DNA from: Escherichia coli
Lineage (GTDB): Bacteria; Pseudomonadota; Gammaproteobacteria; Enterobacterales; Enterobacteriaceae
Length of the DNA stretch: 64,000 nt
NCBI RefSeq assembly: GCF_003991155.1
Contig: NZ_CP031297.1
Strand: one strand, 5' to 3'
In this document: positions 848 to 58,523 of the stretch, piece by piece
How the letters are laid out: the number at the start of each line of letters is the position of its first letter
How positions within the stretch are numbered: position 1 is the stretch's first letter
The notes under the pieces: generated by a model
Database searches by the model: none
The model's input: only the letters and a program-made list of their open reading frames with translations
Told to the model about the DNA's origin: nothing
Translations under genes and position numbers: made by a program

Positions 848-875
848 TGCCCAAAATGGGCGCGTAAGCGTCCGA
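848..875 (+). promoter_or_regulatory. Motif B (GCCC-AAAAT-GGGC dyad followed by TAAGCG), copy 1 of 8
   Basis: Recurring dyad/hairpin motif located upstream of plus-strand transcription units. Confidence 0.4.
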
Positions 876-961: not shown

Positions 962-1339
962 ATGCCAAAGCAAGCAAATCATCTCCGTTTGAAGAAACCT
1001 TGCGCCAACTGTCCATTCCGGAAGGAGGGCGCTATCGAGCTGGCCCCTGGGCGATTAGAAGGCATCATCAACGACATCGTTGAAAACGACATGACGACGT
1101 TTCATTGCCACAAGACCGTGCACTCAAAGTCAGGTGGTGAATGGGATGAAGAGGGTAACTATGCACCTTCGGGACAAGAGTCGATGTGTGCCGGTGCTGC
1201 GGCTTACTTGATGAAAATAGGCAGGCCGACAGTGGCTATGCGAATTGCCTTTGCGTTTGGTGATGCAAAGGTGTCCGACTGGGACGAAGCTCAAGAGCTG
1301 GTTGTCGAGCCTTTGGTACAAGGGGACCGAAATGAGTAA
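962..1339 (+). CDS. Hypothetical protein with Cys/His cluster (CANCPF...FHCHKT)
   Basis: ORF 953..1339; first ATG at 962; first gene of plus operon. Confidence 0.65.
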   Translation: MPKQANHLRLKKPCANCPFRKEGAIELAPGRLEGIINDIVENDMTTFHCHKTVHSKSGGEWDEEGNYAPSGQESMCAGAAAYLMKIGRPTVAMRIAFAFGDAKVSDWDEAQELVVEPLVQGDRNE

Positions 1340-1613
1340 GCGATATGCGGTAGTGCCGCATCCGAAACTGAAACGAGAGTACAAAGGTCGGCTGGTCAGA
1401 ACTACTCGGGTACTAAAAAACGGCTGGGGGTTGATCCCTCTAGGGGCTGTGGCAACGGTCACGCATCAGTCTCCCAAGGGATCAGAACTGACCTTTGAAC
1501 CATGCGACTGCTGCGGCCTGAAAGCCATTATCAGTCATGTAAGCATGGACTCCATTGAATTTATCGAACCGATTACTGAGGAAGAAGATGGACGAGAACA
1601 AGCTCAACATTGA
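1332..1613 (+). CDS. Hypothetical protein
   Basis: ATG at 1332 with AAGGGGA upstream, overlaps preceding stop; in-frame part of ORF 1245..1613. Confidence 0.55.
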   Translation: MSKRYAVVPHPKLKREYKGRLVRTTRVLKNGWGLIPLGAVATVTHQSPKGSELTFEPCDCCGLKAIISHVSMDSIEFIEPITEEEDGREQAQH

Positions 1614-2262
1614 AACGGTCGATGGGCACAACGAGCTGGTAGTCAGCTTTTTGTCCAGAATGGTAAGCCTGAGTGACGAGGAAAAGCAGACAGTATTGTC
1701 CTGCCTTCCGGACACCGGCAAACAAACAATCACCCAGCTCTATGAGGCGCTGCGTTCTCAAGGGCACCAGGATCTTGCAGAGAAAGTCGAACCATACCTC
1801 CAGCAGGGGGTGTTTGGGCCGATCTTCGATAACGCCAAGTCCAAGGTGTTCGTTCGGGACGAAGCGCCTTTTTTCCTCATGGATGAAAATCCTTTGAACT
1901 GGGATGACGCTAAAGCATTCAATCGCCTACGTATGAGTACGACCTGTGTTCTTGGCCGTGGCGGCTGGACTATCGGTGAGCGCTTTGATGACCGCTTTGA
2001 TACCGAGGTGGGCGGAACACAGCTTATCGTCACTCAGTCACTCAACGAAAAAGGTGAGATTGAAGGAGGACTTCCTACCTCGATGTCGCTGAATGACTTT
2101 GCTGAGTTCCCTAAACAGCCAAGGCCTCCTCAAATAGTCGATTACCAGGAAGACAAGCGATACACGCTTGAGGAAGCGGAAGCTATCCCTGAGCTCGCAC
2201 CAGTGGTTCAGCGTCTGAAAGAGCGCATCGAAGAGTATGAGGAGAGAAGAGCCCATGATTGA
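1588..2262 (+). CDS. Hypothetical protein
   Basis: ATG at 1588 with GAGGA upstream; ORF track start 1555 is TTG. Confidence 0.75.
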   Translation: MDENKLNIETVDGHNELVVSFLSRMVSLSDEEKQTVLSCLPDTGKQTITQLYEALRSQGHQDLAEKVEPYLQQGVFGPIFDNAKSKVFVRDEAPFFLMDENPLNWDDAKAFNRLRMSTTCVLGRGGWTIGERFDDRFDTEVGGTQLIVTQSLNEKGEIEGGLPTSMSLNDFAEFPKQPRPPQIVDYQEDKRYTLEEAEAIPELAPVVQRLKERIEEYEERRAHD

Positions 2263-2761
2263 CCTGACATGCCGCCTTTGTGCTGGTTCCGGTGTTTATG
2301 ACTTTTCCCCTTCCAAAGAAACCTGCGGTATGTGCCAAGGGCATGGGAAATTTGTTGACGCCAAAGCAATGCTGGTGGCTGCCATCGAGCTGGCAAAGAA
2401 GCAACGCGAGCCTGTCATTGAAGTGGTAATGGGGTTGGTGCTCCAGGGTGTGGATGTTAGAGGGAAGGAGCCTGGAGAGCGGTTCAAGGCTGCTCAGGCC
2501 TTTAACGCCCCAGGGCACAACCTATTACGATACGGGTGGGATGCTTGGGAGCTCTATGCCCTCCATGAGGGTGTAAGTCCAGAACTTGCATCGCTTGGCC
2601 GAAGTGTGATGCGCGAGTGGCATAGCCATTCATGGGGCCGGTTCAGTGGAGAGGTAGGCTTTAACGCCGCCGAGATCATGATCAAACAGGCCAAAGACAA
2701 CCCAGAAAAAGCAGAAGAGCGCTGGGCGTTCCTGCTTAGTGAAGAATGGATGGTGGAGTAA
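2255..2761 (+). CDS. Hypothetical protein with N-terminal zinc-ribbon (CRLCAGSG...CGMCQGHG)
   Basis: ATG at 2255 with GAGGAGAGAAGAG upstream; two CxxCxGxG repeats. Confidence 0.75.
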   Translation: MIDLTCRLCAGSGVYDFSPSKETCGMCQGHGKFVDAKAMLVAAIELAKKQREPVIEVVMGLVLQGVDVRGKEPGERFKAAQAFNAPGHNLLRYGWDAWELYALHEGVSPELASLGRSVMREWHSHSWGRFSGEVGFNAAEIMIKQAKDNPEKAEERWAFLLSEEWMVE

Positions 2762-3078
2762 TTGTCGTGACAGAACAAACCAATAAGAAATTGATGCTGG
2801 ATGAGTCTCCAGATATGCCCCTGCAATTCAAGTGGAGAAAGTTTGGTGGTGCGATTTTTACTGCCACGCAAACAATGGAGCACGTCAAGGAAGGACGTAA
2901 GCTCGGGCCGACTCCAGCAGGGATGCTACCTCAAGAAGTGTGGCTGAACCGCCTGATCGCTATGGAAGAAACCCTGCCACGAGGGAAGTTTTTTGACAGA
3001 TTCCGCCGCCGCGACAAAAACGAGCAGTATGACTTGGCCGCCGATCATCTCCGTCTTGTCGGACAGAAAAAGCGATAG
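2746..3078 (+). CDS. Hypothetical protein (alternative GTG start at 2767 with GGAG SD)
   Basis: ORF 2746..3078 in operon context. Confidence 0.6.
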   Translation: MDGGVIVVTEQTNKKLMLDESPDMPLQFKWRKFGGAIFTATQTMEHVKEGRKLGPTPAGMLPQEVWLNRLIAMEETLPRGKFFDRFRRRDKNEQYDLAADHLRLVGQKKR

Positions 3079-3086
3079 GGGGATAG

Positions 3087-3587
3087 ATGAAAGCCCAGGC
3101 ATACCCACCATCAGTCATTCGTAAAGGCGCTGTGTTGTACGCAGCCCTTTATTACATCTCTGATGATGATAAAGCAAAGGTCGAGGTTACAGAGTGGATA
3201 GTTCGCTCTATTCAGAAACGACGCAACTCAACCAGCGATCAACGCTATGTCAATCTTGCCCAAAAGTTAGATGGGATTACGTGGGGGAAAAGGTCACGGA
3301 AGAATGGGGACTTTGGTTGGTTGCCATCTATACCGAGCTGGTGCTTGAAGCAGTTCCGGGAAGGTGGCGAATTGCCTTTTGGCGTTTATACGACGCGACT
3401 GGCCGCTCTCAAGTTTGCGAAAGTCAGCTTGCAGGAAGAGGTCCAATATTGCGAGGCCGAGCTGAAAAAGGCTCAGACAGAAGAGGATACTCAGGAACTC
3501 CAAGAGGAGCTGGCGGAGAACCAGAGACTTCTGAAAGCTGCTGGAGCAATGGTGAAGCGCGAGCAAAACAAGAAGAAAAGAGGTTGA
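3087..3587 (+). CDS. Hypothetical protein, coiled-coil C-terminus
   Basis: ATG with AGGGGGA SD; ORF 166 aa. Confidence 0.75.
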   Translation: MKAQAYPPSVIRKGAVLYAALYYISDDDKAKVEVTEWIVRSIQKRRNSTSDQRYVNLAQKLDGITWGKRSRKNGDFGWLPSIPSWCLKQFREGGELPFGVYTTRLAALKFAKVSLQEEVQYCEAELKKAQTEEDTQELQEELAENQRLLKAAGAMVKREQNKKKRG

Positions 3588-3590
3588 CCA

Positions 3591-5018
3591 ATGTTACCGA
3601 TCGTCTCCCCCTCCGTAGTAACCAAACAACTTGCGTTCAATCGAGTAGGCGATAAACGCAAGGTTAGGGTTTCGTCCAACTTTTTGGATGTTATGGGGTT
3701 CAAGCCAGGTATGGGCATCGCCGTTGAGCCAGGGGAGGGGATGGGCGGTTTTTCGGTGATCCCAGCGACCGATGAACTACAGACACACCAGGTTTATCAG
3801 CGCCGGTATCAACCAAAGAGTCGCTCCAACAACCCGCTGGAAACCGTTATTGAGTTTTCTGGACAAGGGCTCATAGATAAGTGCTTCCCTCGCTATACAG
3901 AGCGTTTCCACGTCGAAATGCGAAAAGGTCGAGTAGTCTTCACTCCCGTCGCAAACAGAGCCTTTGCCATTGCTGATCGGTTCAGAAAAACCAGCCCTTT
4001 CCGTGCCTTTGTGGCATTGACTGGCGGGGTAGACATTCATGTTATGGAATCGCTTGGCTGGAAGGCTGAGATTGTTTTGGAACATCGTCCAGTTGAAGCC
4101 AGAGACAGAGCATCCGGGCGGAACCTGAGTGAAGTACATGCGCTCAATACGCTGGTGAACAGCTCCCCGCGTATCCTGCTGAATGAAGACATTCATCACC
4201 TGGAGCTGGATCGCCTTGGAGCCTTGCTGGCGGAGTGCCCACCAATTGGTTTGGCCCATTACTCGTTGGGGTGTGATGACCACTCAAACGCCAAAAGTCC
4301 AAGGGACAAAGAGCGTTCTCTTGAAGATCTCTCCACCATGCTCGACATGGTTTACCCGGCACTAAAACAGATCGAGGTCGTGAACCCTGCCGTCGTGCTG
4401 GTGGAAAACGTCCCGAACTTCAAAGCATCCGGAGCCGGGGCGATGATGGGAACGACACTGCGGCGGATGGGGTACTTCCTCACTGAGATGGTCTTGAACG
4501 GTCTGGATTTCGGCGCGTACCAGGGGCGAGAACGCTATTACATGGTGGCGTCGGTCTTCCCTGGGTTCGTTCCACCGAAACCTGAGCAGAGAGCTGGTGG
4601 ACGATTGTGGCCGGTGATCGAGAAGCACCTCGGGGATTGTGCAGACGTCACAGCGTTGAAGTCAATTCAGGCCAGAGAGTCAACTTCTCGCAGGATGCCT
4701 GCGTTCTTGACGAGAGAAAGCACCAGTTGCCCGACCATCCTCAAGTCTCAGGATCGTGGGGTAAAGGATGCAGTGTACATCCAAGACGGTGGCCGCATTT
4801 ACAAGCCATCGGTCGATCTGGTTCAGGAGTTGATGTCGATACCTGATAGCTTTGATATTTCGTGGATGGCAAAAGAACAAGCGACAGAAACACTTGGGCA
4901 GAGTGTGGATTACAGATTGCATTCAGCGGTCATGGCCGCAGTTCGGGATCACCTGAATGTGAATTGCGGTCGCCATACCGTGGTGCAGCACGGTATCAGA
5001 AGTAAGGAAGGTAAATAA
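3591..5018 (+). CDS. DNA (cytosine-5)-methyltransferase-like protein with N-terminal AbrB/MazE-like domain
   Basis: C5-methyltransferase motifs: LTGGVD (I-like), SLGCDDHS (PC-like), NPAVVLVENVPNF (ENV), QGRERYYMVA (QxRxR), LGQSVD (X-like); N-terminal ~110 aa with AbrB-like pattern; paralog of 55614..57239. Confidence 0.8.
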   Translation: MLPIVSPSVVTKQLAFNRVGDKRKVRVSSNFLDVMGFKPGMGIAVEPGEGMGGFSVIPATDELQTHQVYQRRYQPKSRSNNPLETVIEFSGQGLIDKCFPRYTERFHVEMRKGRVVFTPVANRAFAIADRFRKTSPFRAFVALTGGVDIHVMESLGWKAEIVLEHRPVEARDRASGRNLSEVHALNTLVNSSPRILLNEDIHHLELDRLGALLAECPPIGLAHYSLGCDDHSNAKSPRDKERSLEDLSTMLDMVYPALKQIEVVNPAVVLVENVPNFKASGAGAMMGTTLRRMGYFLTEMVLNGLDFGAYQGRERYYMVASVFPGFVPPKPEQRAGGRLWPVIEKHLGDCADVTALKSIQARESTSRRMPAFLTRESTSCPTILKSQDRGVKDAVYIQDGGRIYKPSVDLVQELMSIPDSFDISWMAKEQATETLGQSVDYRLHSAVMAAVRDHLNVNCGRHTVVQHGIRSKEGK

Positions 5019-5674
5019 TGGCAGTCATTTACTACGGCGAGGGAACCCATGACGCCGGTTTCGTCGGGTTCCGTGTCGCACGAACAGTTGGGGTGGCGGA
5101 TGATTACCGGCAGGAATACTTCTCCTTGAGAGAGTATTCCTACGCAACAGCTCACCGGCTGGCCTACAGCTTGGACCGAAAGTGGGAAGCTGAGGCAGAA
5201 GAGGTGAAGCGTCAGAATAAGACTTGTAAGCGGCGACGCAACTCCGGGCCAAATATCATTGCTGAGGGGCTGAGGGCTTATATCAGTATCGAGAACCGGA
5301 GCCGGATGGGGGTGAAGAGAACCTACTTCGCACCTTGTTTTCTCGTCACAAAGCCAGGCTACGGCAATGGGGATATTGTTTTCAGGATTTCCACTCATGG
5401 CTACGCAGAAGCCTACGAAAAGGCGGTGGAAAAATATTGTGAGATCCATGATTTGACGGATGAGCAGTATGTTGAGTTGCTTGACCGTATGCCGAGTACA
5501 GAGGTGTTCACTGGATACCTGCTGAATGCTCTTTTAATACGCGGTCATCGCGCCACAAAAGCTGAAATACTGAGTAAGCTGGGGGCTGCGAAGAATGAAG
5601 ATGACATCACCAATAGCAAAGGGAAAAGCGGCCACAACAGAGTGCGTTGCCCAGAGTATCGGTGGGCGCAATAA
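5018..5674 (+). CDS. Hypothetical protein
   Basis: ATG overlaps preceding stop (TAATG); AAGGAAGG upstream. Confidence 0.75.
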   Translation: MAVIYYGEGTHDAGFVGFRVARTVGVADDYRQEYFSLREYSYATAHRLAYSLDRKWEAEAEEVKRQNKTCKRRRNSGPNIIAEGLRAYISIENRSRMGVKRTYFAPCFLVTKPGYGNGDIVFRISTHGYAEAYEKAVEKYCEIHDLTDEQYVELLDRMPSTEVFTGYLLNALLIRGHRATKAEILSKLGAAKNEDDITNSKGKSGHNRVRCPEYRWAQ

Positions 5675-5729
5675 CAGCGCCAGATGTTCAAACCATGTTT
5701 TATAGCAACACCTCTTTGGGGGCGGAATT

Positions 5730-6347
5730 ATGTTTTTTGATAACAAAGTAGAATCTCACTCGCTCGTAATGGGAGCCAGCGGGAAGGGCAAATCGGTCTT
5801 GTCCGAACAAGTGCGGAAAAACGCGAGGCTGCGCGGTGATCTGCTGGTGGATACTGAGATGTACCGTGAAGGTCGAGGGTTGAAACCATACGAGCATGAG
5901 TACGCTCGTCGCTTAGTTCTGGGGCTAAGTGGACCGTTGCCGCGTGAACTGCGTGGGAAGCCGGTGACGGTTATCTCTGATGTGTCCAGACCAAAAAAGG
6001 TAAAGCGTCAGCCAAAGCAATTTGTTAAGACCGTAAATGGCGTCACCCTTGAACGCCAATTGGTGGCAGATGCAAGAGACCAGTTGGAAATGCAAACAGG
6101 CGTCTGGCTCAAACAACCTCAGCTCATCGAGCTGATGGAAGAGTCGGGCATAGACGAAACTCTAGCCGATTTTGGTGAGGCTGAAACACAGATCCGAGAA
6201 ATGCTGGCGGATGCGTTGGCGATGAAACTGGTAGGGCGCTCATGGCCCAAGTGTGGAGCCCTCTATAACGCGGCAGAAAAGTCCGACGTTAACTTTTCCT
6301 CCGAGCTTGATGCTGCGGCAAAAGAAGCTGGATACATGGTTCGCTGA
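5730..6347 (+). CDS. P-loop NTPase of unknown function (Walker A GASGKGKS at residues 15-22)
   Basis: ORF 205 aa; GGGGG SD; Walker A motif read from translation. Confidence 0.7.
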   Translation: MFFDNKVESHSLVMGASGKGKSVLSEQVRKNARLRGDLLVDTEMYREGRGLKPYEHEYARRLVLGLSGPLPRELRGKPVTVISDVSRPKKVKRQPKQFVKTVNGVTLERQLVADARDQLEMQTGVWLKQPQLIELMEESGIDETLADFGEAETQIREMLADALAMKLVGRSWPKCGALYNAAEKSDVNFSSELDAAAKEAGYMVR

Positions 6348-6554
6348 ATGGGATTTGGTGTGGACAAGATAGATCGGCAAAGTTGGCTCGTTAAATTCAG
6401 GCGAGCGAAGTGTCAGGACACTTTAGACACGATGCGGGATGCGGCCATTCGCAACTATGAAGGGAATATTCGTGTTATCGCGGATATTGTATTGGCCCAT
6501 GAGGCGAGAGAGACAGAAATTGAAAAAGGGATGTTTTGTCTAATAGTTAGATAG
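6348..6554 (+). CDS. Small hypothetical protein
   Basis: ATG adjacent to preceding stop (TGAATG); weak SD. Confidence 0.45.
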   Translation: MGFGVDKIDRQSWLVKFRRAKCQDTLDTMRDAAIRNYEGNIRVIADIVLAHEARETEIEKGMFCLIVR

Positions 6555-6579
6555 TCTGATGAGCTATCAGGTGGTGATT

Positions 6580-6858
6580 ATGAAAAAGAGAATACTTCAT
6601 CTGCCCGTAAAAAAGATTTACTTCGATCAGATCAAATCTGGAGAAAAACCAGATGAATATCGCCTCGTCACAGACTACTGGATAAAAAGACTAGAGGGGC
6701 GCGAGTATGATGAAGTCCATGTTAAGTGTGGCTACCCAAAGGCTGGAGATATGTCCAGGATAGAGATTCGTCCTTGGCGTGGCTTCTCAAGGAACGTCAT
6801 AACGCACCCGCACTTTGGAGATTATCCGGTTGAAGTATTCGCCATCCATGTGAATTGA
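6580..6858 (+). CDS. Small PUA/ASCH-like domain protein (tentative)
   Basis: ATG at 6580 with AGGTGG SD; resemblance to ASCH-type small proteins is from memory only. Confidence 0.6.
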   Translation: MKKRILHLPVKKIYFDQIKSGEKPDEYRLVTDYWIKRLEGREYDEVHVKCGYPKAGDMSRIEIRPWRGFSRNVITHPHFGDYPVEVFAIHVN

Positions 6859-19914: not shown

Positions 19915-20815
19915 ACTTTCGCTCCTGGCGCTGTCCTTGGCGCTTGGAACTTCAATGGCCTATGCCTCGGATGACATTCCTGTTGTCCCGGCCAGTGTTA
20001 TGAAAAAGGATGTTCCTGCCCCTGTGACGTCAGGACAAAGCTCCCATGAGGTTGTGGGCAGCATGAATGAAAACCCCTTACTGACGATGAAGCCGGGGGT
20101 TAACCAGATCATCCCGATAGCCGTTGGTCATCCGAACCGAATCGTCACGCCTTTCAGCAATCCTGAGATCGTTTCAACATCTCTGACCGGGGCGACGGAT
20201 AACGGCCAGTGTGGTGAGGTCTGCATCAAAGAGAATGTGGTCTATGTCGCCACGGATAAGCAGTATCCGGTGACTATGTTCATTACTGAAAAAGGCTCGG
20301 AAGCCCAAGCTCTCAGCCTGACGATGGTTCCCCGTCGTATTCCGCCCAGAGAAGTCTTTCTCAAGCTCGATGGTGGTGTAGGTATCACTGGTGCTTTTGC
20401 CAATACCAAGGCTGAGACCTGGGAACAGAGCCAGCCTTATGTCGAAACCATCCGGTCGGTATTCCGCAAGATTGCTCTTGGTGAAGTCCCTCAAGGTTAC
20501 ACGTTGAACCGCATCCCTGCTGGTGCTGCGGTGCCGAGCTGCGCTCATCCTGGGGTAAAGGTGGATTTCAGCAAGGGGCAATACATGATGGGCCACCACC
20601 TTAACGTGTTCATCGGTGTCGCCCTGAACGTCTCTGATCAGCCTATTGAGTTCAAAGAGGCGTTGTGTGGGAGCTGGGATGTGGCTGCGGTGACTACGTG
20701 GCCGCTTAACGTGCTTGAGCCCGGCCAGAAGACGGAGATCTATGTGGCGAAGAAGCAGAAGCGTGGTCTCGCACCAACGTCTAAGCGTCCATCGCTGCTG
20801 GGAGGTGCCCAATGA
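19898..20815 (+). CDS. Secreted T4SS protein (signal peptide)
   Basis: Signal peptide MKNNAKLSLLALSLALGTSMAYA. Confidence 0.8.
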   Translation: MKNNAKLSLLALSLALGTSMAYASDDIPVVPASVMKKDVPAPVTSGQSSHEVVGSMNENPLLTMKPGVNQIIPIAVGHPNRIVTPFSNPEIVSTSLTGATDNGQCGEVCIKENVVYVATDKQYPVTMFITEKGSEAQALSLTMVPRRIPPREVFLKLDGGVGITGAFANTKAETWEQSQPYVETIRSVFRKIALGEVPQGYTLNRIPAGAAVPSCAHPGVKVDFSKGQYMMGHHLNVFIGVALNVSDQPIEFKEALCGSWDVAAVTTWPLNVLEPGQKTEIYVAKKQKRGLAPTSKRPSLLGGAQ

Positions 20816-40565: not shown

Positions 40566-40616
40566 AGTCGCTCTGCGGCTATAGGTGAGATAGCTGGTCT
40601 CCGAAAACAAACAGCA
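40566..40616 (+). promoter_or_regulatory. Conserved leader element C, copy 1 (hairpin GAGA-TAGCTGG-TCTC + CGAAAACAAACAGCA)
   Basis: Seven related copies, each before a gene block. Confidence 0.45.
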
Positions 40617-40713
40617 TCTAGTCTTATGCCGTATGGCATTACTTAACCCCAAGCCGGGGGCTTCTCCCGGTTTTCGGGTGTTGCCCCTGTTTTTTTTACA
40701 TAGGAGCAACACC

Positions 40714-41034: not shown

Positions 41035-41073
41035 TAACTGTCGCTGAGTAATCTTCGACACTTTCAAACCCAT

Positions 41074-41113
41074 CGGGGCAACCATACCCCGACGGGGATG
41101 TTGCCCCTTTTTG
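41074..41113 (+). terminator. Terminator-like hairpin (GGGGCAAC ... GTTGCCCC + TTTTT)
   Basis: GC stem + T-run after gene 40714..41034. Confidence 0.45.
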
Positions 41114-41523: not shown

Positions 41524-41600
41524 GGGAGTAGCCTCCAGGAGAGGCTACTCTCCTCGCTCCTTAAAAGTCTTCTTACTCATGGTGAATACCATCAGTAAGC

Positions 41601-41660
41601 AGATTTTGTTCTCTTCGGAGAGCGAAAAGTGCGATAGCTGGTCGCCAAAAACAAACAGCA
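41601..41660 (+). promoter_or_regulatory. Leader element C, copy 2 (hairpin CTCTTCGGAGAG, hairpin GCGA-TAGCTGG-TCGC, CAAAAACAAACAGCA)
   Basis: Part of a 121-bp block identical to 46436..46556. Confidence 0.5.
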
Positions 41661-41742
41661 AATTAACGTTAATTTACTAGCCCAACCGGGCGCATCCGCC
41701 CGGTTCGGGACGTGGTGCGCCTGTCACAATAGGAGCGCACCT

Positions 41743-44221: not shown

Positions 44222-44238
44222 CACCGCCAACTCTTACT

Positions 44239-44284
44239 AAACCCCACGGGGGCACTCATGCCCCGAGGGGGTCATGGTGTCCTC
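44239..44284 (+). repeat. Intercistronic GC-hairpin element, example 2 (CATGGTGT pairs with ACACCATG at the recT start)
   Basis: Upstream segment is complementary to the SD/start region. Confidence 0.6.
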
Positions 44285-46378: not shown

Positions 46379-46435
46379 GTGGGGGATTTTCCCCCGCTTT
46401 CCCTTGGGGATTCTGGGAGTCTCCAACGGAAAGCA

Positions 46436-46495
46436 AGATTTTGTTCTCTTCGGAGAGCGAAAAGTGCGATAGCTGGTCGCCAAAAACAAACAGCA
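46436..46495 (+). promoter_or_regulatory. Leader element C, copy 3 (identical to copy 2)
   Basis: 121-bp identity with 41601..41721. Confidence 0.5.
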
Positions 46496-46577
46496 AATTA
46501 ACGTTAATTTACTAGCCCAACCGGGCGCATCCGCCCGGTTCGGGACGTGGTGCGCCCCCAACTTTTTGGAGTGCATC

Positions 46578-50145: not shown

Positions 50146-50178
50146 CTTTGCACCCGAAAAGGGCAGTTTGAGCGTTCC
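50146..50178 (+). promoter_or_regulatory. Motif B (GCACCC-GAAAA-GGGC ... TTTGAGCG), copy 7
   Basis: Stem GCCC/GGGC with GAAAA loop. Confidence 0.4.
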
Positions 50179-50267
50179 TGTTCACACAGCTCTCGTGGAA
50201 CAATCAAAGTGAGGAGGGAATACCCTCCCACTTTCTCAGAGGCCTTCATTGAGGGTTGCTGAGAAAG

Positions 50268-50327
50268 TGAATTTTGTCCTCTCTGAGGGCGAAACGTGCG
50301 ATAGCTGGTCGCCAAAAACAAACAGCA
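50268..50327 (+). promoter_or_regulatory. Leader element C, copy 4
   Basis: CCTCTCTGAGGG hairpin, GCGATAGCTGGTCGC hairpin, CAAAAACAAACAGCA. Confidence 0.5.
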
Positions 50328-50397
50328 TTCAACCTCAGCCTAAGGGCGCACTGCGCCTGACAGGCTCTGTGTGCCCAAGTTACTTTAAGGAGCACAC

Positions 50398-50937: not shown

Positions 50938-51027
50938 ATCGCCGTTCAACCATTAACCCTAATTAACCCTATGGGGCTCCGATAGCCCTGAGGGGACGGG
51001 GCTCCGCAATCGCAATAAGGAGTCCCT

Positions 51028-51528: not shown

Positions 51529-51601
51529 TCTTAATCCCTAACCAGGGGCGAACCGGCCCCTGATGGGAGCATGGTGCGCCCCATCTATGATGGAGGACGC
51601 C

Positions 51602-52486
51602 ATGTTCAAATCATCAGTATGCTCCTACGAAAACAGGGGGCCTTACGGAAACAACAAGTACCGAGGCAACTGCTCGGGCTTTATCGTTAAAGACTTCATT
51701 GAGTCTTACATGAGAAAGCCGAACGGGCTGGTGGCAGACCCAAGTGTTGGGGGTGGCTCTAGCATCGACGTTGCCAATGAACTTGGTGTCCGTTTCAAAG
51801 GGACAGACTTGCATCAGGGGTTCAACCTGTTGCGGGATGACTTCCTTTCGTTCCTCGGAGAGCCTGCACACCTGATCTGGTGGCACCCTCCTTACTGGGA
51901 CATGATCCAGTATTCAGGTAAGCAGTGGGGCGAGCCCAACAAATGGGATATGAGCCGCATGAATTTGCCTGAGTTCGTTGAAGCCCTTGAGCTGGCCGTT
52001 ATGAATATTCATGACGCCTGTGAGCGAGGAGGGCATTACGGAATCCTCATGGGAAACCTGAGGCGCGATGGGGATTATTTCAACCTGTCCAGCCTTGTGG
52101 AACGTATCGCACCTGGGAAGCTGGTGGATGAGATCATCAAAACACAGCACAACTGTGTGAGTGACCGAACTCAGTATTCCGGGAAGCTGGTGCGTATCGC
52201 CCATGAAAAGCTGTTGGTGTTTCGTCGTAACGACGTTGCCTCATCGCTCTGTCTTCTTGCTGCCGTACACCGTCGAGCAACCAATATGGTTTCGACTACG
52301 TGGAAAGCTGCAATACGCCGAACCCTACAGGGGAAAACGTTGAAGCTGGAGCAGATTTACAAAGAGATTGAACCCTACGCAAAGCATCGAGAGAACAACC
52401 ACTGGCAAGCAAAGGTCAGGCAAGTTCTTCAAGATGCCAGGTTCTTTATTCGCATCGAGGTAGGTGTCTATGCACTTGCTGAGTAG
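51602..52486 (+). CDS. Putative DNA methyltransferase (motif I-like ADPSVGGGSS, motif IV-like HPPY)
   Basis: ATG at 51602 with GGAGGA SD; motif order I then IV about 50 aa apart. Confidence 0.65.
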   Translation: MFKSSVCSYENRGPYGNNKYRGNCSGFIVKDFIESYMRKPNGLVADPSVGGGSSIDVANELGVRFKGTDLHQGFNLLRDDFLSFLGEPAHLIWWHPPYWDMIQYSGKQWGEPNKWDMSRMNLPEFVEALELAVMNIHDACERGGHYGILMGNLRRDGDYFNLSSLVERIAPGKLVDEIIKTQHNCVSDRTQYSGKLVRIAHEKLLVFRRNDVASSLCLLAAVHRRATNMVSTTWKAAIRRTLQGKTLKLEQIYKEIEPYAKHRENNHWQAKVRQVLQDARFFIRIEVGVYALAE

Positions 52487-53227: not shown

Positions 53228-53669
53228 CCGATACACGGCCAGGGAGTCTGACAAAAGTCGGATACTTCGGACCATAGGCTGGTGCAAGCGCAACCACCTT
53301 ACACTTGCCGGTCTTCCATACGAGGACAATCTTGCAGGAAGTGATGGGATCAGCATAGAGATCATCACTCCTCCTGGTATGTCGCGGGAAATGTTGGAGC
53401 AAGCCGTCAGAGAGGGGTATTCAGAGCGAGATGTCGTAAGGCATCGCATTCTGGAGTGCCCTGTCGGTTGGTTCATGGAAGCTGATGGCAAGGCATTTGA
53501 TCATGAAGTGTTCCACGATTACGTGGTGGCTCATGGTTATGGCGAACCTTCCAGCGAAGCCTATGAGCTGGCGGAGCGGTGGTTCTGGCAGGGCAACGAT
53601 TATGCGTTGATAGCTGCGGAAATAGTTGCTCGTGATCTTTGTGTTCGTGATGACGAAGATGAGGACTGA
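53217..53669 (+). CDS. Hypothetical acidic protein
   Basis: ATG at 53217 with GGAGG SD; C-terminal DDEDED. Confidence 0.7.
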   Translation: MQLNRYTARESDKSRILRTIGWCKRNHLTLAGLPYEDNLAGSDGISIEIITPPGMSREMLEQAVREGYSERDVVRHRILECPVGWFMEADGKAFDHEVFHDYVVAHGYGEPSSEAYELAERWFWQGNDYALIAAEIVARDLCVRDDEDED

Positions 53670-53673
53670 TCCT

Positions 53674-53949
53674 ATGGATGCTGTAGCGCATATAGCAGCA
53701 GATAACCTTGTACCGGCATGTGGAGGTGCAGAGAAGCCGTTTACCGTTAGTGGTAGACAGTGGCTTTACTGCTATCACCCAGCCAGTGGGAGGCACTGCT
53801 ACTTAGACCTCGATAATGACCGTCCAGTCTGGCATCGAGGATTTCATCCTGCTTTTCATCCTGAGCTTGAGTTCGCTGATGAAGCTGAGTTGCTTCGACC
53901 AGTTGAGCGAAAGCCTGACCATGAAGAGCTGGAGGATTTTTACTTTTAA
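53674..53949 (+). CDS. Small hypothetical protein
   Basis: ATG at 53674 with GAGGA SD. Confidence 0.6.
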   Translation: MDAVAHIAADNLVPACGGAEKPFTVSGRQWLYCYHPASGRHCYLDLDNDRPVWHRGFHPAFHPELEFADEAELLRPVERKPDHEELEDFYF

Positions 53950-54006
53950 CCCACGGGGCCGCTCTTCCTGATGGGAGACGGTCCTCCATTCTCAAAGGAG
54001 AAGACC

Positions 54007-54198
54007 ATGAAAGATCACAGTCAAACGATTGTGTTCCCTGGGAACAATGTTGAATCACTTGCTGAGGCTAACGCCATGTTGAGCGCTGTGTCGGAAGATG
54101 CACGTAAAGCCAGCAATACGGAAGACAAACGTGACCTTGAATCGCTTCAAGGCTGGCTGGAAGAGAACATCAATTCTCAACTGGCAGGCGTGAAGTAA
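54007..54198 (+). CDS. Small hypothetical protein (63 aa)
   Basis: ATG at 54007 with AAGGAG SD. Confidence 0.6.
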   Translation: MKDHSQTIVFPGNNVESLAEANAMLSAVSEDARKASNTEDKRDLESLQGWLEENINSQLAGVK

Positions 54199-54266
54199 CT
54201 ATGACTGTAACCCCACTGGGGGCTTCATGCCCCTGTGGGGGCATGGTGCCCGTAAAAGGAGTCACC

Positions 54267-54620
54267 ATGAATGCAGTGAAGATGATCCAGAAGGAAAACC
54301 AGCTTGAGCTGCCGCTTTTCTTCCTGGATGAAGAGCCGAAGACCGCAGAAGTCATTCCATTTGAGCCAAAGCCTGAATGGACTGATGATGAGGTAAGGCA
54401 GTTACGTGATGGGCTTTTATGGCATAGCCTTAGAGTCCTTGCTGATGGTCGAGCTGGAAGTGAAATCAAGCAGGAAACGATGGCTTGGGTGATGTCCGAT
54501 GAGGTACATCCATTCTCATTTGTGGTCTGCTGCGATGAAGCAGGTTACGATCCATCTGGAGTAAGGGAAGGCGTGAAGTCTATCCTAAACCGCTTAGCGC
54601 GGGTTAAAGCGGGGGGTTAA
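54267..54620 (+). CDS. Hypothetical protein
   Basis: ATG at 54267 with AAGGAG SD. Confidence 0.7.
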   Translation: MNAVKMIQKENQLELPLFFLDEEPKTAEVIPFEPKPEWTDDEVRQLRDGLLWHSLRVLADGRAGSEIKQETMAWVMSDEVHPFSFVVCCDEAGYDPSGVREGVKSILNRLARVKAGG

Positions 54621-54645
54621 CCCCCTGCTTTCCCAGTGGCATCGA

Positions 54646-54661
54646 CTTTCACATGTGAAAG
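54646..54661. promoter_or_regulatory. Palindrome CTTTCACATGTGAAAG (copy 4)
   Basis: Exact copy 20 bp upstream of leader element C copy 5. Confidence 0.5.
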
Positions 54662-54681
54662 TTTGTGCCCCTCGGAAAGCA

Positions 54682-54741
54682 AGATTTTGCTCTCTGTCGA
54701 GAGTGAATAGTGAGGTAGCTGGCCTCCCCAAACAAACAGCA
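54682..54741 (+). promoter_or_regulatory. Leader element C, copy 5 (stems CTCTC/GAGAG and GAGG/CCTC)
   Basis: Stem sequences differ from other copies while base pairing is kept. Confidence 0.5.
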
Positions 54742-54811
54742 TTCTACATAACCCTTGGGGGATCACTGCCCCTCGGGCTGGTGGTTCCCTGACAAACATG
54801 GAGCCACAACT

Positions 54812-55156
54812 ATGACTACTCTTGCCAGCTTTGCGAATCCGATTTCTGTTATTCAACGCTCACCAACCAGTGGGGTGTTTGGCACAAATCAGTTCGTAGG
54901 AGACAAAGAGGGATTTGTACAAAAGGTGCTCGGAAAGTGGTACTGCAATCCAGGGAATACCATTCCCGTTGAGAGCATGTCCCACCTTGAGCAGGCGGAG
55001 AAACTGTATGACTTCTATGTCAAGTATCTCCAAGTGAAAGAAAAGATCTCTGTGAACCTTGGCCGGGTGCTGCATAAGCTGTACAGCACTGGTTCTATCA
55101 AGGAAGCAGAGATCGTGCTTGAAGCAATAAAGGCTCAGGCTGGCGTAACAGCTTGA
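54812..55156 (+). CDS. Hypothetical protein
   Basis: ATG at 54812 with GGAG SD. Confidence 0.7.
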   Translation: MTTLASFANPISVIQRSPTSGVFGTNQFVGDKEGFVQKVLGKWYCNPGNTIPVESMSHLEQAEKLYDFYVKYLQVKEKISVNLGRVLHKLYSTGSIKEAEIVLEAIKAQAGVTA

Positions 55157-55164
55157 GCAATCTA

Positions 55165-55233
55165 CTAACCCTAAACCGGGTGCATCCGCCCGGTTCGGGA
55201 CGTGGTGCGCCCCCAAACTATTTGGAGTGCATC
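55165..55233 (+). repeat. Intercistronic hairpin/leader identical over about 60 bp to the leader at 46498..46577
   Basis: CCGGGYGCATCCGCCCGGTTCGGGACGTGGTGCGCCCCCAA...TTGGAGTGCATC shared. Confidence 0.6.
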
Positions 55234-55536
55234 ATGGAAAAACATAACCTCAAATCCGGATTCAGCATCTATTTCGCTGACGTCCATTTCGAGAAACAAG
55301 TCTACGCATTCGGCTCAGGACTTGGCTTCACCTCTGTGATTTACGCCTACTCGCTGGGCCGAGATCCGGAAGAAGCTGAGAAGCTGGCGCTTGAAAAGTA
55401 CGACTCTGACGAAACGAAGGTGAAGAAGGTGCATGTCAATCTGGCTCGCAGCCAGGACATCAACCGCTACACCTTCCCTGAACAAATGGCTGGCTTTGCT
55501 AATGCCATTCAGTCTCACGGCATCGCTGTGAACTGA
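55234..55536 (+). CDS. Hypothetical protein
   Basis: ATG at 55234 with GGAG SD. Confidence 0.7.
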   Translation: MEKHNLKSGFSIYFADVHFEKQVYAFGSGLGFTSVIYAYSLGRDPEEAEKLALEKYDSDETKVKKVHVNLARSQDINRYTFPEQMAGFANAIQSHGIAVN

Positions 55537-55613
55537 GAACCACTTTAAACCCATCGGGGCCATTACTTCCCGATTGGGACGGTAGTGGCCTCTCAACCGA
55601 AAGGAGAGAGCTC

Positions 55614-57239
55614 ATGGCTACTATCGTAAACACCAAGTTAGGAGAACATCGAGGCAAGAAGCGCGTCTGGCTGGAAGGCCAAAAGCTACTGCGTGAAGGT
55701 TACTATCCTGGCATGAAGTATGATCTGGAGCTGAAAGATTCCCAGGTTGTGCTTCGCGTCAAAGAGGAGGGTAAGTTCACCATCAGTAAGCGTGAGCGCA
55801 ATGGCCGGGTGTCTCCAATCATCGATCTGACCGTGCAGGAGCTTGCTACCGTTTTTGACGGTGTAGAGATGCTCCGCGTGTTCATCCGTAACGGCGCAAT
55901 TGTGATCTCTGCTCACCATCAACAAGAGCGAGTGATCGAGCGCGTCAACCGGCTTATCAGTAAGCTGGAGAATGGAGAATCGCTTTCGGTATGCAGCCTC
56001 TTTCATGGGGGTGGTGTGCTTGATAAAGCGATTCACGCCGGTTTTCACAAGGCGGGAATTGCCAGTGCCATATCTGTGGCCGTGGAGATGGAAGGGAAAT
56101 ATCTCGATTCGTCTTTGGCAAATAACCCGGAGCTTTGGAACGAAGATTCTATTGTTATCGAATCGCCAATCCAGGCTGTGAATCTCAGCAAACGCCCACC
56201 ACAGGTGGATGTTTTGATGGGGGGCATACCGTGTACCGGCGCGTCAAAGTCAGGTCGCAGTAAGAACAAGTTGGAGTTTGCCGAATCGCATGAGGCGGCA
56301 GGTGCCATGTTCTTCAACTTCCTGCAATTCGTAGAAGCGCTAAACCCAGCCGTTGTGCTGATTGAGAACGTGCCTGAGTACCAGAACACCGCTTCGATGG
56401 AAGTGATTCGTTCGGTGCTCTCTTCGTTGGGTTACTCCCTACAAGAGCGCATTCTCGACGGCAATGAGTTTGGGGTTATTGAGCGCCGCAAGCGTCTTTG
56501 TGTTGTTGCGCTTTCCCACGGGATCGACGGGTTTGAACTTGAGAAGGTTCAGCCTGTTCGCACCAAGGAAAGTCGCATACAGGACATCCTGGAGCCAGTT
56601 CCGCTCGATTCTGAACGTTGGAAGTCATTTGACTATCTGGCTGAGAAGGAGTTGAGAGACAAAGCTGCTGGCAAGGGGTTCTCTCGCCAGCTTCTGACTG
56701 GCGACGATGAGTTTTGCGGCACCATAGGTAAGGACTATGCAAAATGCAGAAGTACCGAACCTTTCATTGTTCATCCAGAACAGCCGGAGTTGTCTCGCAT
56801 CTTTACACCGACAGAACATTGTCGAGTGAAAGGGATACCAGAGGAACTCATCCAAGGTCTGTCGGACACTATTGCCCACCAGATTCTCGGGCAATCGGTA
56901 GTCTTTCCCGCGTTCGAGGCTTTAGCCCTCGCATTAGGGAACAGCCTGTGGAGCTGGGTTGGAATGATGCCAATCATGGTCGAAGTCGTGGATGAATCAC
57001 AGCCGGTGATCGGTGGTGAAGACTTCCATTGGGCAACGGCATTGGTTGACGCAAAGGGCACTCTCAAGCTGTCACCGGCAGCGAAAAAACAGGGGATGCC
57101 CTTCAACATTATGGATGGTCAATTGGCTGTCTATTCACCTAACGGAACTAAAAAGAGCTGCGGCCATGAGCCTTGCGAATATCTCCCGGTAATGATGTCC
57201 GGAGACGCAATCATGGTCACTTCATCTTTGGTTCATTAG
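55614..57239 (+). CDS. DNA (cytosine-5)-methyltransferase-like protein with N-terminal AbrB/MazE-like domain (paralog of 3591..5018)
   Basis: Motifs LFHGGG (I), GGIPCTGAS (PC), ENVPEY (ENV), RRKRLCVVA (VIII), LGQSVV (X). Confidence 0.85.
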   Translation: MATIVNTKLGEHRGKKRVWLEGQKLLREGYYPGMKYDLELKDSQVVLRVKEEGKFTISKRERNGRVSPIIDLTVQELATVFDGVEMLRVFIRNGAIVISAHHQQERVIERVNRLISKLENGESLSVCSLFHGGGVLDKAIHAGFHKAGIASAISVAVEMEGKYLDSSLANNPELWNEDSIVIESPIQAVNLSKRPPQVDVLMGGIPCTGASKSGRSKNKLEFAESHEAAGAMFFNFLQFVEALNPAVVLIENVPEYQNTASMEVIRSVLSSLGYSLQERILDGNEFGVIERRKRLCVVALSHGIDGFELEKVQPVRTKESRIQDILEPVPLDSERWKSFDYLAEKELRDKAAGKGFSRQLLTGDDEFCGTIGKDYAKCRSTEPFIVHPEQPELSRIFTPTEHCRVKGIPEELIQGLSDTIAHQILGQSVVFPAFEALALALGNSLWSWVGMMPIMVEVVDESQPVIGGEDFHWATALVDAKGTLKLSPAAKKQGMPFNIMDGQLAVYSPNGTKKSCGHEPCEYLPVMMSGDAIMVTSSLVH

Positions 57240-57299
57240 TAACTCACCGGGGCAATGCCGAAAGGCCTTTGCTCCGGCCTATCCGAAAGGAGAGTAATC

Positions 57300-57731
57300 A
57301 TGAAAATCGAAACTGTTGTGCCTTTACCTCCCGAGGATTCAGGCCTTCAACACTGCATTGCCAGGTTCCATAACCGCAACATGGATTCCAAGCGAAAAGA
57401 CAAGACCCGTTTTTTCAGGAGGGAGCCGGTTATGATCGTAAACCCAGAGACCAAAGCAAAGGTTCTCCGGTATGCGATGGGCAACCCTGGGAATTTATCC
57501 ATCACAAAGCTGGCGGTCGCGCTGGATTACGATGCGGTAGATGCTCTGGGTGTTCGTTTTAAAGACACTGTAAATCTTGAGGTTCGCAGAGCCAGGCGCT
57601 GGGAAGTCTGGCAGTGGTTCTGGAACCATCCGGATCAAAGTGTCCAACTGTCAATCAAATTGGGCGTGGTTGGCGCTGTGTTGGGAGTCATGGGCTTCCT
57701 GACTGGCGTAGCTCCGTACCTCTTGGGATAA
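57300..57731 (+). CDS. Hypothetical protein with C-terminal TM helix
   Basis: ATG at 57300 with AAGGAGAG SD. Confidence 0.7.
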   Translation: MKIETVVPLPPEDSGLQHCIARFHNRNMDSKRKDKTRFFRREPVMIVNPETKAKVLRYAMGNPGNLSITKLAVALDYDAVDALGVRFKDTVNLEVRRARRWEVWQWFWNHPDQSVQLSIKLGVVGAVLGVMGFLTGVAPYLLG

Positions 57732-57804
57732 ACCAATAAAGCCGTTAACGGGCAATGTAAGTCCGGAGACGGCTTGCATTGCTCTCTCGAAAGTGGAGAG
57801 TCAA

Positions 57805-58359: not shown

Positions 58360-58454
58360 CTTCAACCTGAGTGCGCCGAGAAATCGGCGTACCGGCCCCT
58401 TAAAAAGGGTAATCAGCGCAGGGGGAAACCCCGCGCTTTCCCAAGCATCTCGGT

Positions 58455-58523
58455 TTCCCAGGGTGCTTCGGAAAGTGCCTTAGGCGCTCAAGTGCGGTAG
58501 CTGGCTGCCAAAAACAAACAGCA
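58455..58523 (+). promoter_or_regulatory. Leader element C, copy 6
   Basis: GCGGTAGCTGGCTGCCAAAAACAAACAGCA. Confidence 0.45.

What the first reader, a model, noticed from the sequence alone, without database searches (positions are those of the whole stretch)
3591..5018. Two paralogous Dcm-like C5-methyltransferases fused to an AbrB/MazE-like N-terminal domain
The genes at 3591..5018 and 55614..57239 both carry C5-methyltransferase motifs (I, PC, ENV, QxRxR, X) behind a roughly 110-aa N-terminal domain of the KRKVRV...GFKPGMGIAV / KKRVWLEGQKLL...GYYPGMKYDL type, which resembles swapped-hairpin AbrB/MazE DNA-binding domains. They are diverged paralogs about 50 kb apart. No partner endonuclease was recognised by motif next to either. 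They could be self-regulated orphan methyltransferases that protect incoming DNA; the PC motif of the first copy is atypical (SLGCDDHS).
Basis: partly seen in the sequence, partly recalled or inferred. Interest (0 to 1): 0.6.

Follow-up and report, generated by a model that had tools for sequence, protein, structure and literature searches.

The report
IncC plasmid cytosine methylases, MraZ-like heads
These are the two known orphan cytosine-C5 DNA methylase genes of the IncC resistance-plasmid backbone, one already shown to shield the plasmid from EcoRII, and both carry an N-terminal DNA-binding-type barrel that neither Pfam nor the papers I could search describe.

Summary
The window is IncC (IncA/C2) plasmid backbone. 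ORF 3591..5018 is the published dcm2/vcrx042, and ORF 55614..57239 is dcm1/vcrx109.

**Catalytic domains.** Both are C5-methyltransferase homologues, 26% identical to each other. Copy 2 has canonical motifs. Copy 1's whole family lacks the Pro of the PC motif (consensus SLQCDDFS) but keeps an invariant Cys, ENV and RxR.

**Function.** Published knockout primers map exactly onto copy 2. Its deletion made an IncC plasmid about 2700-fold more sensitive to EcoRII. No nuclease was recognisable among the annotated genes beside either. Expression follows the conjugation activator AcaCD, clearly for copy 2 and only weakly for copy 1, and nothing here supports self-regulation.

**Verdict.** The genes and their role are known. 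The fold assignment of the N-terminal domain is a modest novelty. Its function and copy 1's activity remain untested.

The parts
3591..5018 (+). Copy 1: the IncC backbone gene known as dcm2 / vcrx042 (475 aa), a C5-methylase homologue with a non-canonical motif IV.
   Evidence: ORF. RefSeq WP_000936897.1. Named in papers. Pfam partial hit. Family alignment A1.
3615..3950 (+). Copy 1 N-terminal barrel (about residues 9-120): two beta-beta-alpha-beta-beta repeats, basic (pI 9.8).
   Evidence: AlphaFold full-length model, pLDDT 90.9. hhalign to the copy 2 N-terminal domain. Charge.
4002..4976 (+). Copy 1 methylase domain (about residues 138-462). Invariant in the family: G146, D148, C228, E272, V274, R313, R315, G436-Q437-S438.
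   Evidence: The family profile aligns to M.HhaI residues 72-188, with C228 on the catalytic Cys81.
4263..4286 (+). Copy 1 motif IV, SLGCDDHS. The family consensus is SLQCDDFS: no Pro before the catalytic Cys.
55614..57239 (+). Copy 2: the IncC backbone gene known as dcm1 / vcrx109 (called 'dcm3' in the pKAZ3 paper), 541 aa, a canonical C5 methylase.
   Evidence: ORF. RefSeq WP_000201432.1. Pfam full-domain hit. Knockout primer match.
55614..55970 (+). Copy 2 N-terminal barrel (residues 1-100) plus a long linker helix (102-119). Basic, pI 9.7.
55980..56948 (+). Copy 2 methylase domain (residues 123-445) with motifs FHGGG, GIPCTGAS (C207), ENVPEY, ERRKRLC and LGQSV.
56949..57236 (+). Copy 2 C-terminal extension (residues 446-541). 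It has no family match and is present only in close relatives. Most homologues end near residue 460.
849..861 (+). AcaCD box GCCCAAAATGGGC in front of the 11-gene operon (962..6858) that contains copy 1.
   Evidence: Pattern search. It maps onto the published ChIP-exo site at pVCR94 20382-20410 upstream of vcrx036. Gene packing.
50152..50164 (+). AcaCD-like box in front of vcrx098. This is the nearest mapped AcaCD site upstream of copy 2.
   Evidence: Published site at pVCR94 75267-75295.
54673..54741 (+). One of six copies of a conserved intergenic element. It precedes the block vcrx107-111, of which copy 2 is the third gene.

Best explanation
**What the genes are.** Both genes are orphan (no partner nuclease) cytosine-C5 DNA methyltransferases of the conserved IncC plasmid backbone. 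They belong to two old sister families that share one architecture: an N-terminal, basic, single-chain MraZ-like double-AbrB barrel, then a linker helix, then the methylase domain.

**How they are expressed.** Copy 2 is expressed as part of the AcaCD conjugation regulon. Copy 1 sits in an operon behind a mapped AcaCD site, but its own RNA changed little.

**What they do.** They methylate plasmid DNA so that it survives restriction in new hosts. This is shown genetically for copy 2, which protects against EcoRII, so its specificity must cover CCWGG. It is inferred for copy 1, which keeps the catalytic Cys, ENV Glu, RxR and AdoMet-binding acidic residues despite lacking the Pro of PC.

**The N-terminal barrel.** It is most likely an accessory DNA-binding module that raises the enzyme's affinity or residence on DNA. 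It is less likely to be an operator-specific autorepressor. This last step is inference only.
For: **Identity.** More than 1000 PLSDB plasmids typed IncC/MOBH carry each region at 95-100% identity. Both genes are named in the literature.

**Catalysis.** Copy 2 has the full PF00145 domain and aligns to M.HhaI. The copy 1 family keeps C228, E272, R313 and R315 invariant across 35 sequences down to 33% identity, and C228 aligns to HhaI Cys81.

**Function.** The pKAZ3 'dcm3' deletion raised EcoRII restriction about 2700-fold from a dcm- donor. Its H1 primer equals window 55567-55616, and its H2 primer covers the stop codon region.

**Regulation.**
- An AcaCD box lies at 849-861, in front of the operon holding copy 1.
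- vcrx109 RNA was 501 in the first condition (presumably the intact plasmid), 4 in the acaCD deletion and 2677 on induction.

**N-terminal domain.**
- The two families' domains are homologous.
- The AlphaFold model has pLDDT 89.8.
- Net charge is +5/+6 and pI about 9.7, against acidic catalytic domains.
- The profile finds 1096 cluster representatives. Of the best 146, 105 carry a methylase domain. The other 41 are at most 271 aa, apart from one 1131-aa low-complexity false positive.

**Orphan status.** Neighbours differ in every context examined.
Against: - **No biochemistry on either protein.**
- **Conflicting methylome data.** Bisulfite sequencing of V. cholerae carrying an IncC plasmid found CCWGG unmethylated and no clear new motif. 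That fits poorly with a constitutively active CCWGG methylase.
- **Negative screen.** A transposon screen did not find any dcm gene necessary to escape restriction in V. cholerae.
- **Copy 1 expression.** Copy 1's RNA is low and not significantly AcaCD dependent: 48, 31, 113.
- **Copy 1 motifs.** Its motif I is shortened (LTGGVD) and Pfam sees only part of the domain.
- **Fold evidence is moderate.** Foldseek E-values are above 0.1 and TM is about 0.5. No sequence method links the domain to AbrB or MraZ.
- **DNA binding by the barrel is not tested.**
Confidence: 0.6

Rival explanations
1. The N-terminal barrel is an autorepressor. It would bind an operator near the gene's own promoter and set methylase levels, as the N-terminal helix-turn-helix region of M.SsoII-type methylases does.
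For: AbrB, MazE and MraZ are all transcriptional repressors that bind DNA through this fold. The domain is basic. Precedent for DNA-binding regulatory heads on C5 methylases comes from my own knowledge of M.SsoII and M.Ecl18kI.
Against: - Copy 1 has no promoter of its own. It starts 3 nt after the preceding gene and is seventh in an operon.
- Copy 2 is the third gene of its block, and its RNA falls from 501 to 4 without AcaCD.
- Upstream regions and neighbours of homologues are unrelated. A sequence-specific operator would have to be re-created in each context.
- No sigma-70-like promoter was found in 53500-58500.
Confidence: 0.15
2. Copy 1 is not a working DNA methylase. It could be a catalytically weak paralogue that acts as a DNA-binding or regulatory partner, or it could act on another substrate such as single-stranded DNA or RNA.
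For: - There is no Pro in motif IV, motif I is shortened, and Pfam and TIGR00675 match only part of the domain, well below the curated cut-off.
- The family profile matches DNMT2-type tRNA methylases over a longer stretch than it matches M.HhaI.
- Relatives exist in which a degenerate methylase-like domain is fused in front of a canonical one (P0260, P0215).
- The single deletion had no reported phenotype.
Against: - Invariant Cys, ENV Glu, both Arg of RxR, GQS of motif X and conserved acidic residues at the motif II and III positions, across sequences only 33% identical, argue for selection on catalysis.
- The full-length model is confident throughout the catalytic domain.
Confidence: 0.2
3. 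The N-terminal barrel is not a DNA binder. It would instead mediate protein contacts such as oligomerisation, docking on the relaxosome or on single-strand-binding protein, or export through the conjugation channel into the recipient.
For: MraZ barrels assemble into octamers and larger rings. The genes are co-expressed with transfer functions.
Against: The same domain occurs in phage-encoded homologues that have no conjugation system and in chromosomal contexts. Its positive charge fits nucleic-acid binding better.
Confidence: 0.1

Closest known systems
IncC/IncA-C2 backbone genes dcm1 (vcrx109) and dcm2 (vcrx042), as named by Wang 2019 (PMC6555945), Roy 2020 (PMC7498323) and Dimitriu 2024 (PMC11602122)
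   Same: These are the same genes. Their lengths are 1626 and 1428 bp, the RefSeq proteins are WP_000201432.1 and WP_000936897.1 (one accession away from the WP_000936896.1 that Wang cites), and the knockout primer matches exactly.
   Different: None of these papers describes the N-terminal domain, the family-wide loss of the Pro in copy 1's motif IV, or the recognition sequences. Gene numbering differs between papers: copy 2 is 'dcm1' in two of them and 'dcm3' in the third.
MraZ (PDB 1N0E, 9SZ7), a single-chain tandem AbrB-type barrel and repressor of the dcw operon
   Same: Best structural match by two programs. It has the same order of two beta-beta-alpha-beta-beta repeats in one chain and a basic surface.
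   Different: There is no sequence similarity: hhalign probability 0.5% to E. coli MraZ. There are no conserved DXXXR motifs. Here the barrel is the head of an enzyme rather than a free-standing regulator.
AbrB / MazE / SpoVT / VapB swapped-hairpin DNA-binding domains (Pfam PF04014 clan)
M.SsoII / M.Ecl18kI-type C5 methylases with an N-terminal regulatory DNA-binding region (from my own knowledge)
   Same: A C5 methylase with an extra N-terminal DNA-binding module.
   Different: That module is a helix-turn-helix. It sits in a true restriction-modification pair and binds the shared promoter. Here the fold differs, there is no nuclease partner, and the genes lack promoters of their own.
B3-like pseudobarrel DNA-binding domains of restriction enzymes (EcoRII-N, BfiI-C, NgoAVII)
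   Different: Scores are lower than for MraZ, and these domains are attached to nucleases, not methylases.
Orphan methylases of plasmid leading regions (Samuel 2024, PMC11541004), and the pESBL methylases cited there that act on entering single-stranded DNA
   Same: Plasmid-borne methylases without a nuclease that are thought to, or shown to, protect DNA on entry.
   Different: The position of these genes relative to oriT was not determined here. By my recollection of pVCR94, oriT lies near vcrx001 and so outside the window. Expression here follows AcaCD rather than the single-strand promoters described in that paper.
E. coli Dcm / M.EcoRII (CCWGG)
   Same: Both protect against EcoRII. NCBIfam gives a weak match to the Dcm subfamily model (E 4e-13).
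   Different: The score of 48.7 bits is far below the subfamily cut-off of 710. The match to the solved Dcm-like chains stops before the target-recognition region. Dcm has no MraZ-like head.

Membership tests
Cytosine-C5 DNA methyltransferase (Pfam PF00145 / TIGR00675): copy 2 | Full-length match to the family model, with motifs I (FxGxG), IV (PC), VI (ENV), VIII (QxRxR) and X in order. | tested here: met
   PF00145 covers residues 127-441, E 1e-28. Motifs FHGGG, PCTGAS, ENVPEY, ERRKRLC and LGQSV are conserved in 30 homologues. It aligns to M.HhaI. The TIGR00675 score of 94.4 is just under the cut-off of 100.65.
Cytosine-C5 DNA methyltransferase: copy 2 | Adds 5-methylcytosine to DNA. | not testable with these tools
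   The support is indirect and genetic: deleting the gene makes an IncC plasmid about 2700-fold more sensitive to EcoRII. No methylation map assigns it a motif.
Cytosine-C5 DNA methyltransferase: copy 1 | Full-length match to the family model. | tested here: inconclusive
   Pfam matches only residues 228-320, E 7e-8. TIGR00675 gives 38.3 bits against a cut-off of 100.65. The family profile reaches M.HhaI at E 1.7e-12 over motifs IV-VIII.
Cytosine-C5 DNA methyltransferase: copy 1 | Pro-Cys dipeptide in motif IV. | tested here: not met
   The window has G-C and the family has Q-C or G-C. The Cys is invariant.
Cytosine-C5 DNA methyltransferase: copy 1 | Catalytic Cys, ENV Glu, RxR arginines and motif X are conserved. 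| tested here: met
   C228, E272, V274, R313, R315, G436, Q437 and S438 are invariant in 35 sequences.
AbrB/MazE/SpoVT superfamily (PF04014 and clan) | Significant sequence match to a family model. | tested here: not met
   No Pfam hit at E <= 0.001 for 42 N-terminal domains. The best related hit is SymE_toxin, E 0.02, in one member. The PDB sequence profile search found nothing relevant.
AbrB/MazE/SpoVT superfamily | Swapped-hairpin barrel built from two beta-beta-alpha-beta-beta units. | tested here: met
AbrB/MazE/SpoVT superfamily | Binds DNA. | not testable with these tools
   Only a basic pI of 9.7-9.8 supports this.
MraZ family (PF02381) | Sequence membership and two DXXXR motifs. | tested here: not met
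   hhalign of the N-terminal profile against E. coli MraZ gives probability 0.5%. The equivalent positions are not conserved in alignments A2 and A3.
Type II restriction-modification system | An adjacent restriction endonuclease gene, conserved alongside the methylase. | tested here: not met
   Flanking ORFs have no nuclease match. Neighbours differ in all six other contexts examined. The downstream 218-aa ORF is not similar to the one in the Ralstonia locus. All dcm deletions are viable.
AcaCD conjugation regulon of IncC plasmids | An AcaCD box upstream of the operon, and AcaCD-dependent RNA. | tested here: met
   Copy 1's operon has a box at 849-861 that coincides with a published ChIP-exo site, but its own RNA change was not significant. 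Copy 2's RNA was 501, 4 and 2677. It has no box directly upstream; the nearest is at 50152.
Leading-region anti-defence genes | Location among the first genes to enter the recipient, on the transferred strand. | not tested
   oriT is not in the window, and the direction of transfer was not established here.

The most novel reading that the evidence does not exclude
The MraZ-like barrel defines a large, undescribed class of methylases carried by mobile elements: at least about 1000 clusters at 50% identity, on plasmids, ICEs and phages. In this class an AbrB-type DNA clamp would let the enzyme load on, or stay with, the element's own DNA, possibly as it is transferred or as it enters a new cell. 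Protective methylation would then be fast and largely confined to the element. That would reconcile strong EcoRII protection of the plasmid with the reported absence of CCWGG methylation on the host chromosome.
Probability: 0.2. Interest if true: 0.6.

Novelty: new variant of a known kind. Interest (0 to 1): 0.35.

Why it matters
IncC plasmids are major carriers of multidrug resistance with a very broad host range. Their methylases are part of how they cross restriction barriers.

The genes and the anti-EcoRII role of one of them are already published, so the main claim is not new. Three things are added here:
- The extra N-terminal domain shared by both proteins has a specific, testable fold assignment, as a single-chain AbrB/MraZ-type DNA-binding barrel.
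- This architecture is widespread on mobile elements. Complete proteins among the best matches carry the barrel only with C5 methylase domains.
- Copy 1's odd catalytic motif is a conserved family trait rather than decay.

If the barrel proves to target or tether the enzyme, it would explain how an orphan methylase can protect a plasmid efficiently without re-methylating the host genome.

Tried and rejected
- **Pfam on the N-terminal domains.** Scans of both full proteins and of 42 N-terminal domains gave no significant family for the N-terminus. The Pesticin_RB, SymE_toxin and other hits were all weak.
- **PDB sequence profile search with the N-terminal alignment.** It returned only chance T-cell-receptor hits at E about 1.
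- **hhalign of the N-terminal profile against real E. coli MraZ.** Probability 0.5%, so homology to MraZ cannot be claimed from sequence.
- **NCBIfam, PADLOC and PHROGs.** They returned only generic methylase models for the two proteins and nothing informative for the neighbours.
- **P0334 (1131 aa, 11 matched stretches).** It looked like a new context for the domain but is a low-complexity repeat protein and a false positive.
- **A partner nuclease.** The 218-aa ORF that overlaps copy 1's stop codon has no Pfam, NCBIfam or PHROG match. It is not similar to the downstream gene in the one other copy 1-family locus I compared (Ralstonia). pVCR94 has ORFs of different lengths after vcrx042.
- **Sigma-70 promoter scan of 53500-58500.** It found nothing.
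- **Rfam on the whole window.** No hits.
- **The second recombineering primer of the pKAZ3 knockout.** It did not match within 2 mismatches. Reading the sequence shows the same site with one 1-nt length difference and one substitution.
- **The bisulfite and SMRT study.** I considered it as evidence for specificity and set it aside, because it reports no clean plasmid-dependent motif.

Full report
**What is there.** ORFs 3591..5018 (475 aa) and 55614..57239 (541 aa) exist as described, and all quoted peptide strings are present. The 3-kb and 4-kb regions around them are 95-100% identical to about 1000 and 800 PLSDB plasmids. The records I opened are typed IncC with a MOBH relaxase and F-type mating pore. 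The window is therefore IncC (IncA/C2) backbone. RefSeq annotates both ORFs as DNA cytosine methyltransferases (WP_000936897.1 and WP_000201432.1).

They are the genes the literature calls dcm2/vcrx042 (1428 bp) and dcm1/vcrx109 (1626 bp). A third 'dcm3' (924 bp) is ORF 51563..52486. Pfam sees in it only weak N6/N4-methylase segments and a DpnI-type winged helix, so it is not a C5 enzyme.

**Catalytic domains.** Copy 2 matches PF00145 end to end (E 1e-28) and aligns to M.HhaI. In 30 homologues the motifs FHGGG, PCTGAS, ENVPEY, ExRxR and GQSV are conserved.

Copy 1 matches Pfam only across motifs IV-VIII. An alignment of 35 homologues down to 33% identity shows this is a conserved variant rather than decay:
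- C228, E272, V274, R313, R315 and G436-Q437-S438 are invariant.
- Acidic residues at the motif II and III positions are nearly invariant.
- Motif I is a shortened LTGGVD with G146 and D148 invariant.
- Motif IV reads S-L-(Q/G)-C-D-D-(F/H)-S, never with Pro.

The family profile places C228 on the catalytic Cys81 of M.HhaI. The two proteins are 26% identical over the methylase part. They represent two old sister families rather than a recent duplication.

**The N-terminal domain.** BLAST does not align the N-termini, but family profiles do: hhalign probability 91%, E 1.3e-7. A joint alignment is coherent.

AlphaFold2 on that alignment gives a confident model of copy 2 residues 1-122 (pLDDT 89.8). 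It has two beta-beta-alpha-beta-beta units followed by a long helix. The full-length model of copy 1 (pLDDT 90.9, pTM 0.83) shows the same order of elements.

MraZ is the single-chain, internally duplicated member of the AbrB-type barrels. It binds promoter repeats through a basic cradle.

It is not supported at the sequence level. There is no Pfam hit, no PDB sequence hit, and hhalign to E. coli MraZ gives probability 0.5%. The domains are basic (pI 9.7-9.8, net +5/+6), while the catalytic domains are acidic or neutral.

**Distribution.** A profile of the N-terminal domain finds 1096 representatives among 1.84 billion clusters. Of the best 146, 105 carry a C5-methylase domain. Forty of the other 41 are at most 271 aa, and the ones I read break off within or at the start of the methylase domain. 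The last is a low-complexity false positive.

AlphaFold DB gives 170 structural matches at E <= 0.001. The 50 listed are annotated cytosine methylases or uncharacterised proteins, and every named species is proteobacterial. Two phage genomes encode full-architecture homologues.

Genomic contexts are varied:
- an ICE segment with topoisomerase III, TraT, an ArdB/KlcA anti-restriction gene and RadC;
- a Ralstonia replicon with SSB nearby;
- a contig with UmuDC and three other methylases;
- large elements made of small unknown genes.

None has a conserved neighbour.

**Function from the literature.** Dimitriu et al. 2024 deleted one 'dcm' of the IncC plasmid pKAZ3. They found about 2700-fold more restriction by EcoRII when the plasmid came from a dcm- donor, with small effects for EcoBI and EcoRV. 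Their H1 primer is identical to window 55567-55616 and ends on the ATG of copy 2. Their H2 primer covers its stop codon. So copy 2 is a working anti-restriction methylase whose specificity must include CCWGG.

Wang et al. 2019 reported that a triple dcm deletion abolished transfer. However, their bisulfite data show CCWGG unmethylated on the V. cholerae chromosome and no clean plasmid-dependent motif. Roy et al. 2020 did not recover any dcm gene as needed to escape restriction. The window keeps 158 CCWGG sites, only mildly fewer than expected.

**Regulation.**
- Copy 1 is the seventh gene of an 11-gene, tightly packed operon (962..6858).
- An AcaCD box at 849-861 coincides with the published ChIP-exo site and transcription start upstream of vcrx036.
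- Copy 1's own RNA is low and not significantly changed: 48, 31 and 113 in the three conditions.
- Copy 2 is the third gene of the block vcrx107-111. Its RNA is 501, 4 without AcaCD, and 2677 on induction.
- No ChIP peak lies directly upstream of copy 2. The nearest is before vcrx098, at window 50152.

Neither gene has an obvious promoter of its own. This argues against simple autoregulation by the N-terminal domain, though it does not exclude it.

**Best reading.**
- Shown: gene identity, catalytic conservation, shared N-terminal domain, absence of a conserved nuclease partner, the AcaCD box in front of copy 1's operon, AcaCD dependence of copy 2's RNA, and EcoRII protection by copy 2.
- Inferred: copy 1 is an active methylase with another specificity, and the barrel binds DNA and helps the enzyme engage its substrate.

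The discrepancy between strong plasmid protection and no chromosomal CCWGG methylation may reflect expression only when AcaCD is on, or preferential action on plasmid DNA. This is untested.

**Novelty.** The genes, their orphan status and the protective role are known. I found no description of the N-terminal domain in Pfam, NCBIfam or the searchable literature. Its assignment to an MraZ/AbrB-type barrel, and the size of the family that carries it, are a modest addition.

Noticed in passing
window 40583-40621, 41592-41665, 46427-46500, 50259-50332, 54673-54746, 58490-58528 (+ strand): There are six copies of a conserved intergenic element with the core GTGnGnTAGCTGGnnnCCnAAAACAAACAGCA. A 5-6 bp stem around the invariant loop TAGCTGG is kept by compensatory changes in 2 of its 6 pairs.

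Two copies sit just downstream of AcaCD boxes, in the leaders of vcrx087 and vcrx098. The other four follow terminator-like hairpins.

There is no Rfam match. It could be a leader RNA element (antitermination, processing or stability) or a secondary promoter. One copy precedes the block that holds copy 2.
   Followed up: partly
window 41063-41098, 44237-44272, 50965-50995, 54209-54239, 55544-55579, 61017-61052, 63737-63767; also 41684-41726, 46519-46561, 55174-55216: Two further families of GC-rich hairpin repeats occur in intergenic gaps: AAACCCATCGGGGC...CCCCGA and AACCGGGCGCATCCGCCCGGTTCGGGACGTGGTGCGCC. One copy (55544-55579) fills most of the 77-nt gap directly upstream of copy 2. Their function is unknown.
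   Followed up: no
window 51563-52486 (+): The gene the literature calls 'dcm3' (vcrx100) is not a C5 methylase. Pfam gives two weak N6_N4_Mtase segments in permuted order and a DpnI-type C-terminal winged helix (E 5e-4). Calling it cytosine-specific rests on nothing I could find.
   Followed up: partly
proteins P0260 (734 aa) and P0215 (729 aa), relatives of copy 2: Some relatives carry the barrel, then a degenerate methylase-like domain (ENV replaced, motif IV altered), then a second linker helix and a canonical methylase domain. This is a natural tandem of a pseudo-methylase and an active methylase.
   Followed up: no
window 56949-57236 (copy 2 residues 446-541): Copy 2 has a 96-residue acidic C-terminal extension with no family match. 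It is shared only by close relatives. A Halomonas-type group has a different, longer tail, and most homologues stop near residue 460.
   Followed up: no
window 5018-5674 (+): A 218-aa ORF starts on the last base of copy 1's stop codon (ATGA overlap). It has no database match; the best is an insignificant AP2-domain hit. pVCR94 has ORFs of different lengths after vcrx042, so this ORF is not a fixed partner of copy 1.
   Followed up: partly
literature on window 55614-57239: Two published results conflict and nothing here explains it. Deleting copy 2 makes the plasmid about 2700-fold more EcoRII sensitive (PMC11602122). Yet bisulfite sequencing of V. cholerae carrying an IncC plasmid reported CCWGG unmethylated (PMC6555945). 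Gene names also clash: copy 2 is dcm1 in two papers and dcm3 in another.
   Followed up: partly
phage records PP438435.1 (141637-142965) and MF098558.1 (51737-52993): Dolichospermum phage Dfl-JY45 and Pseudoalteromonas phage KB12-38 encode homologues (40% and 37% identity) that include the N-terminal barrel. Both are annotated only as hypothetical proteins.
   Followed up: no
window 59066-61519 (+): An 817-aa ORF, which RefSeq annotates as phosphoadenosine phosphosulfate reductase, lies two gene blocks downstream of copy 2. An enzyme of that type is unusually large and out of place on a plasmid backbone, and it may be another DNA-modification function.
   Followed up: no
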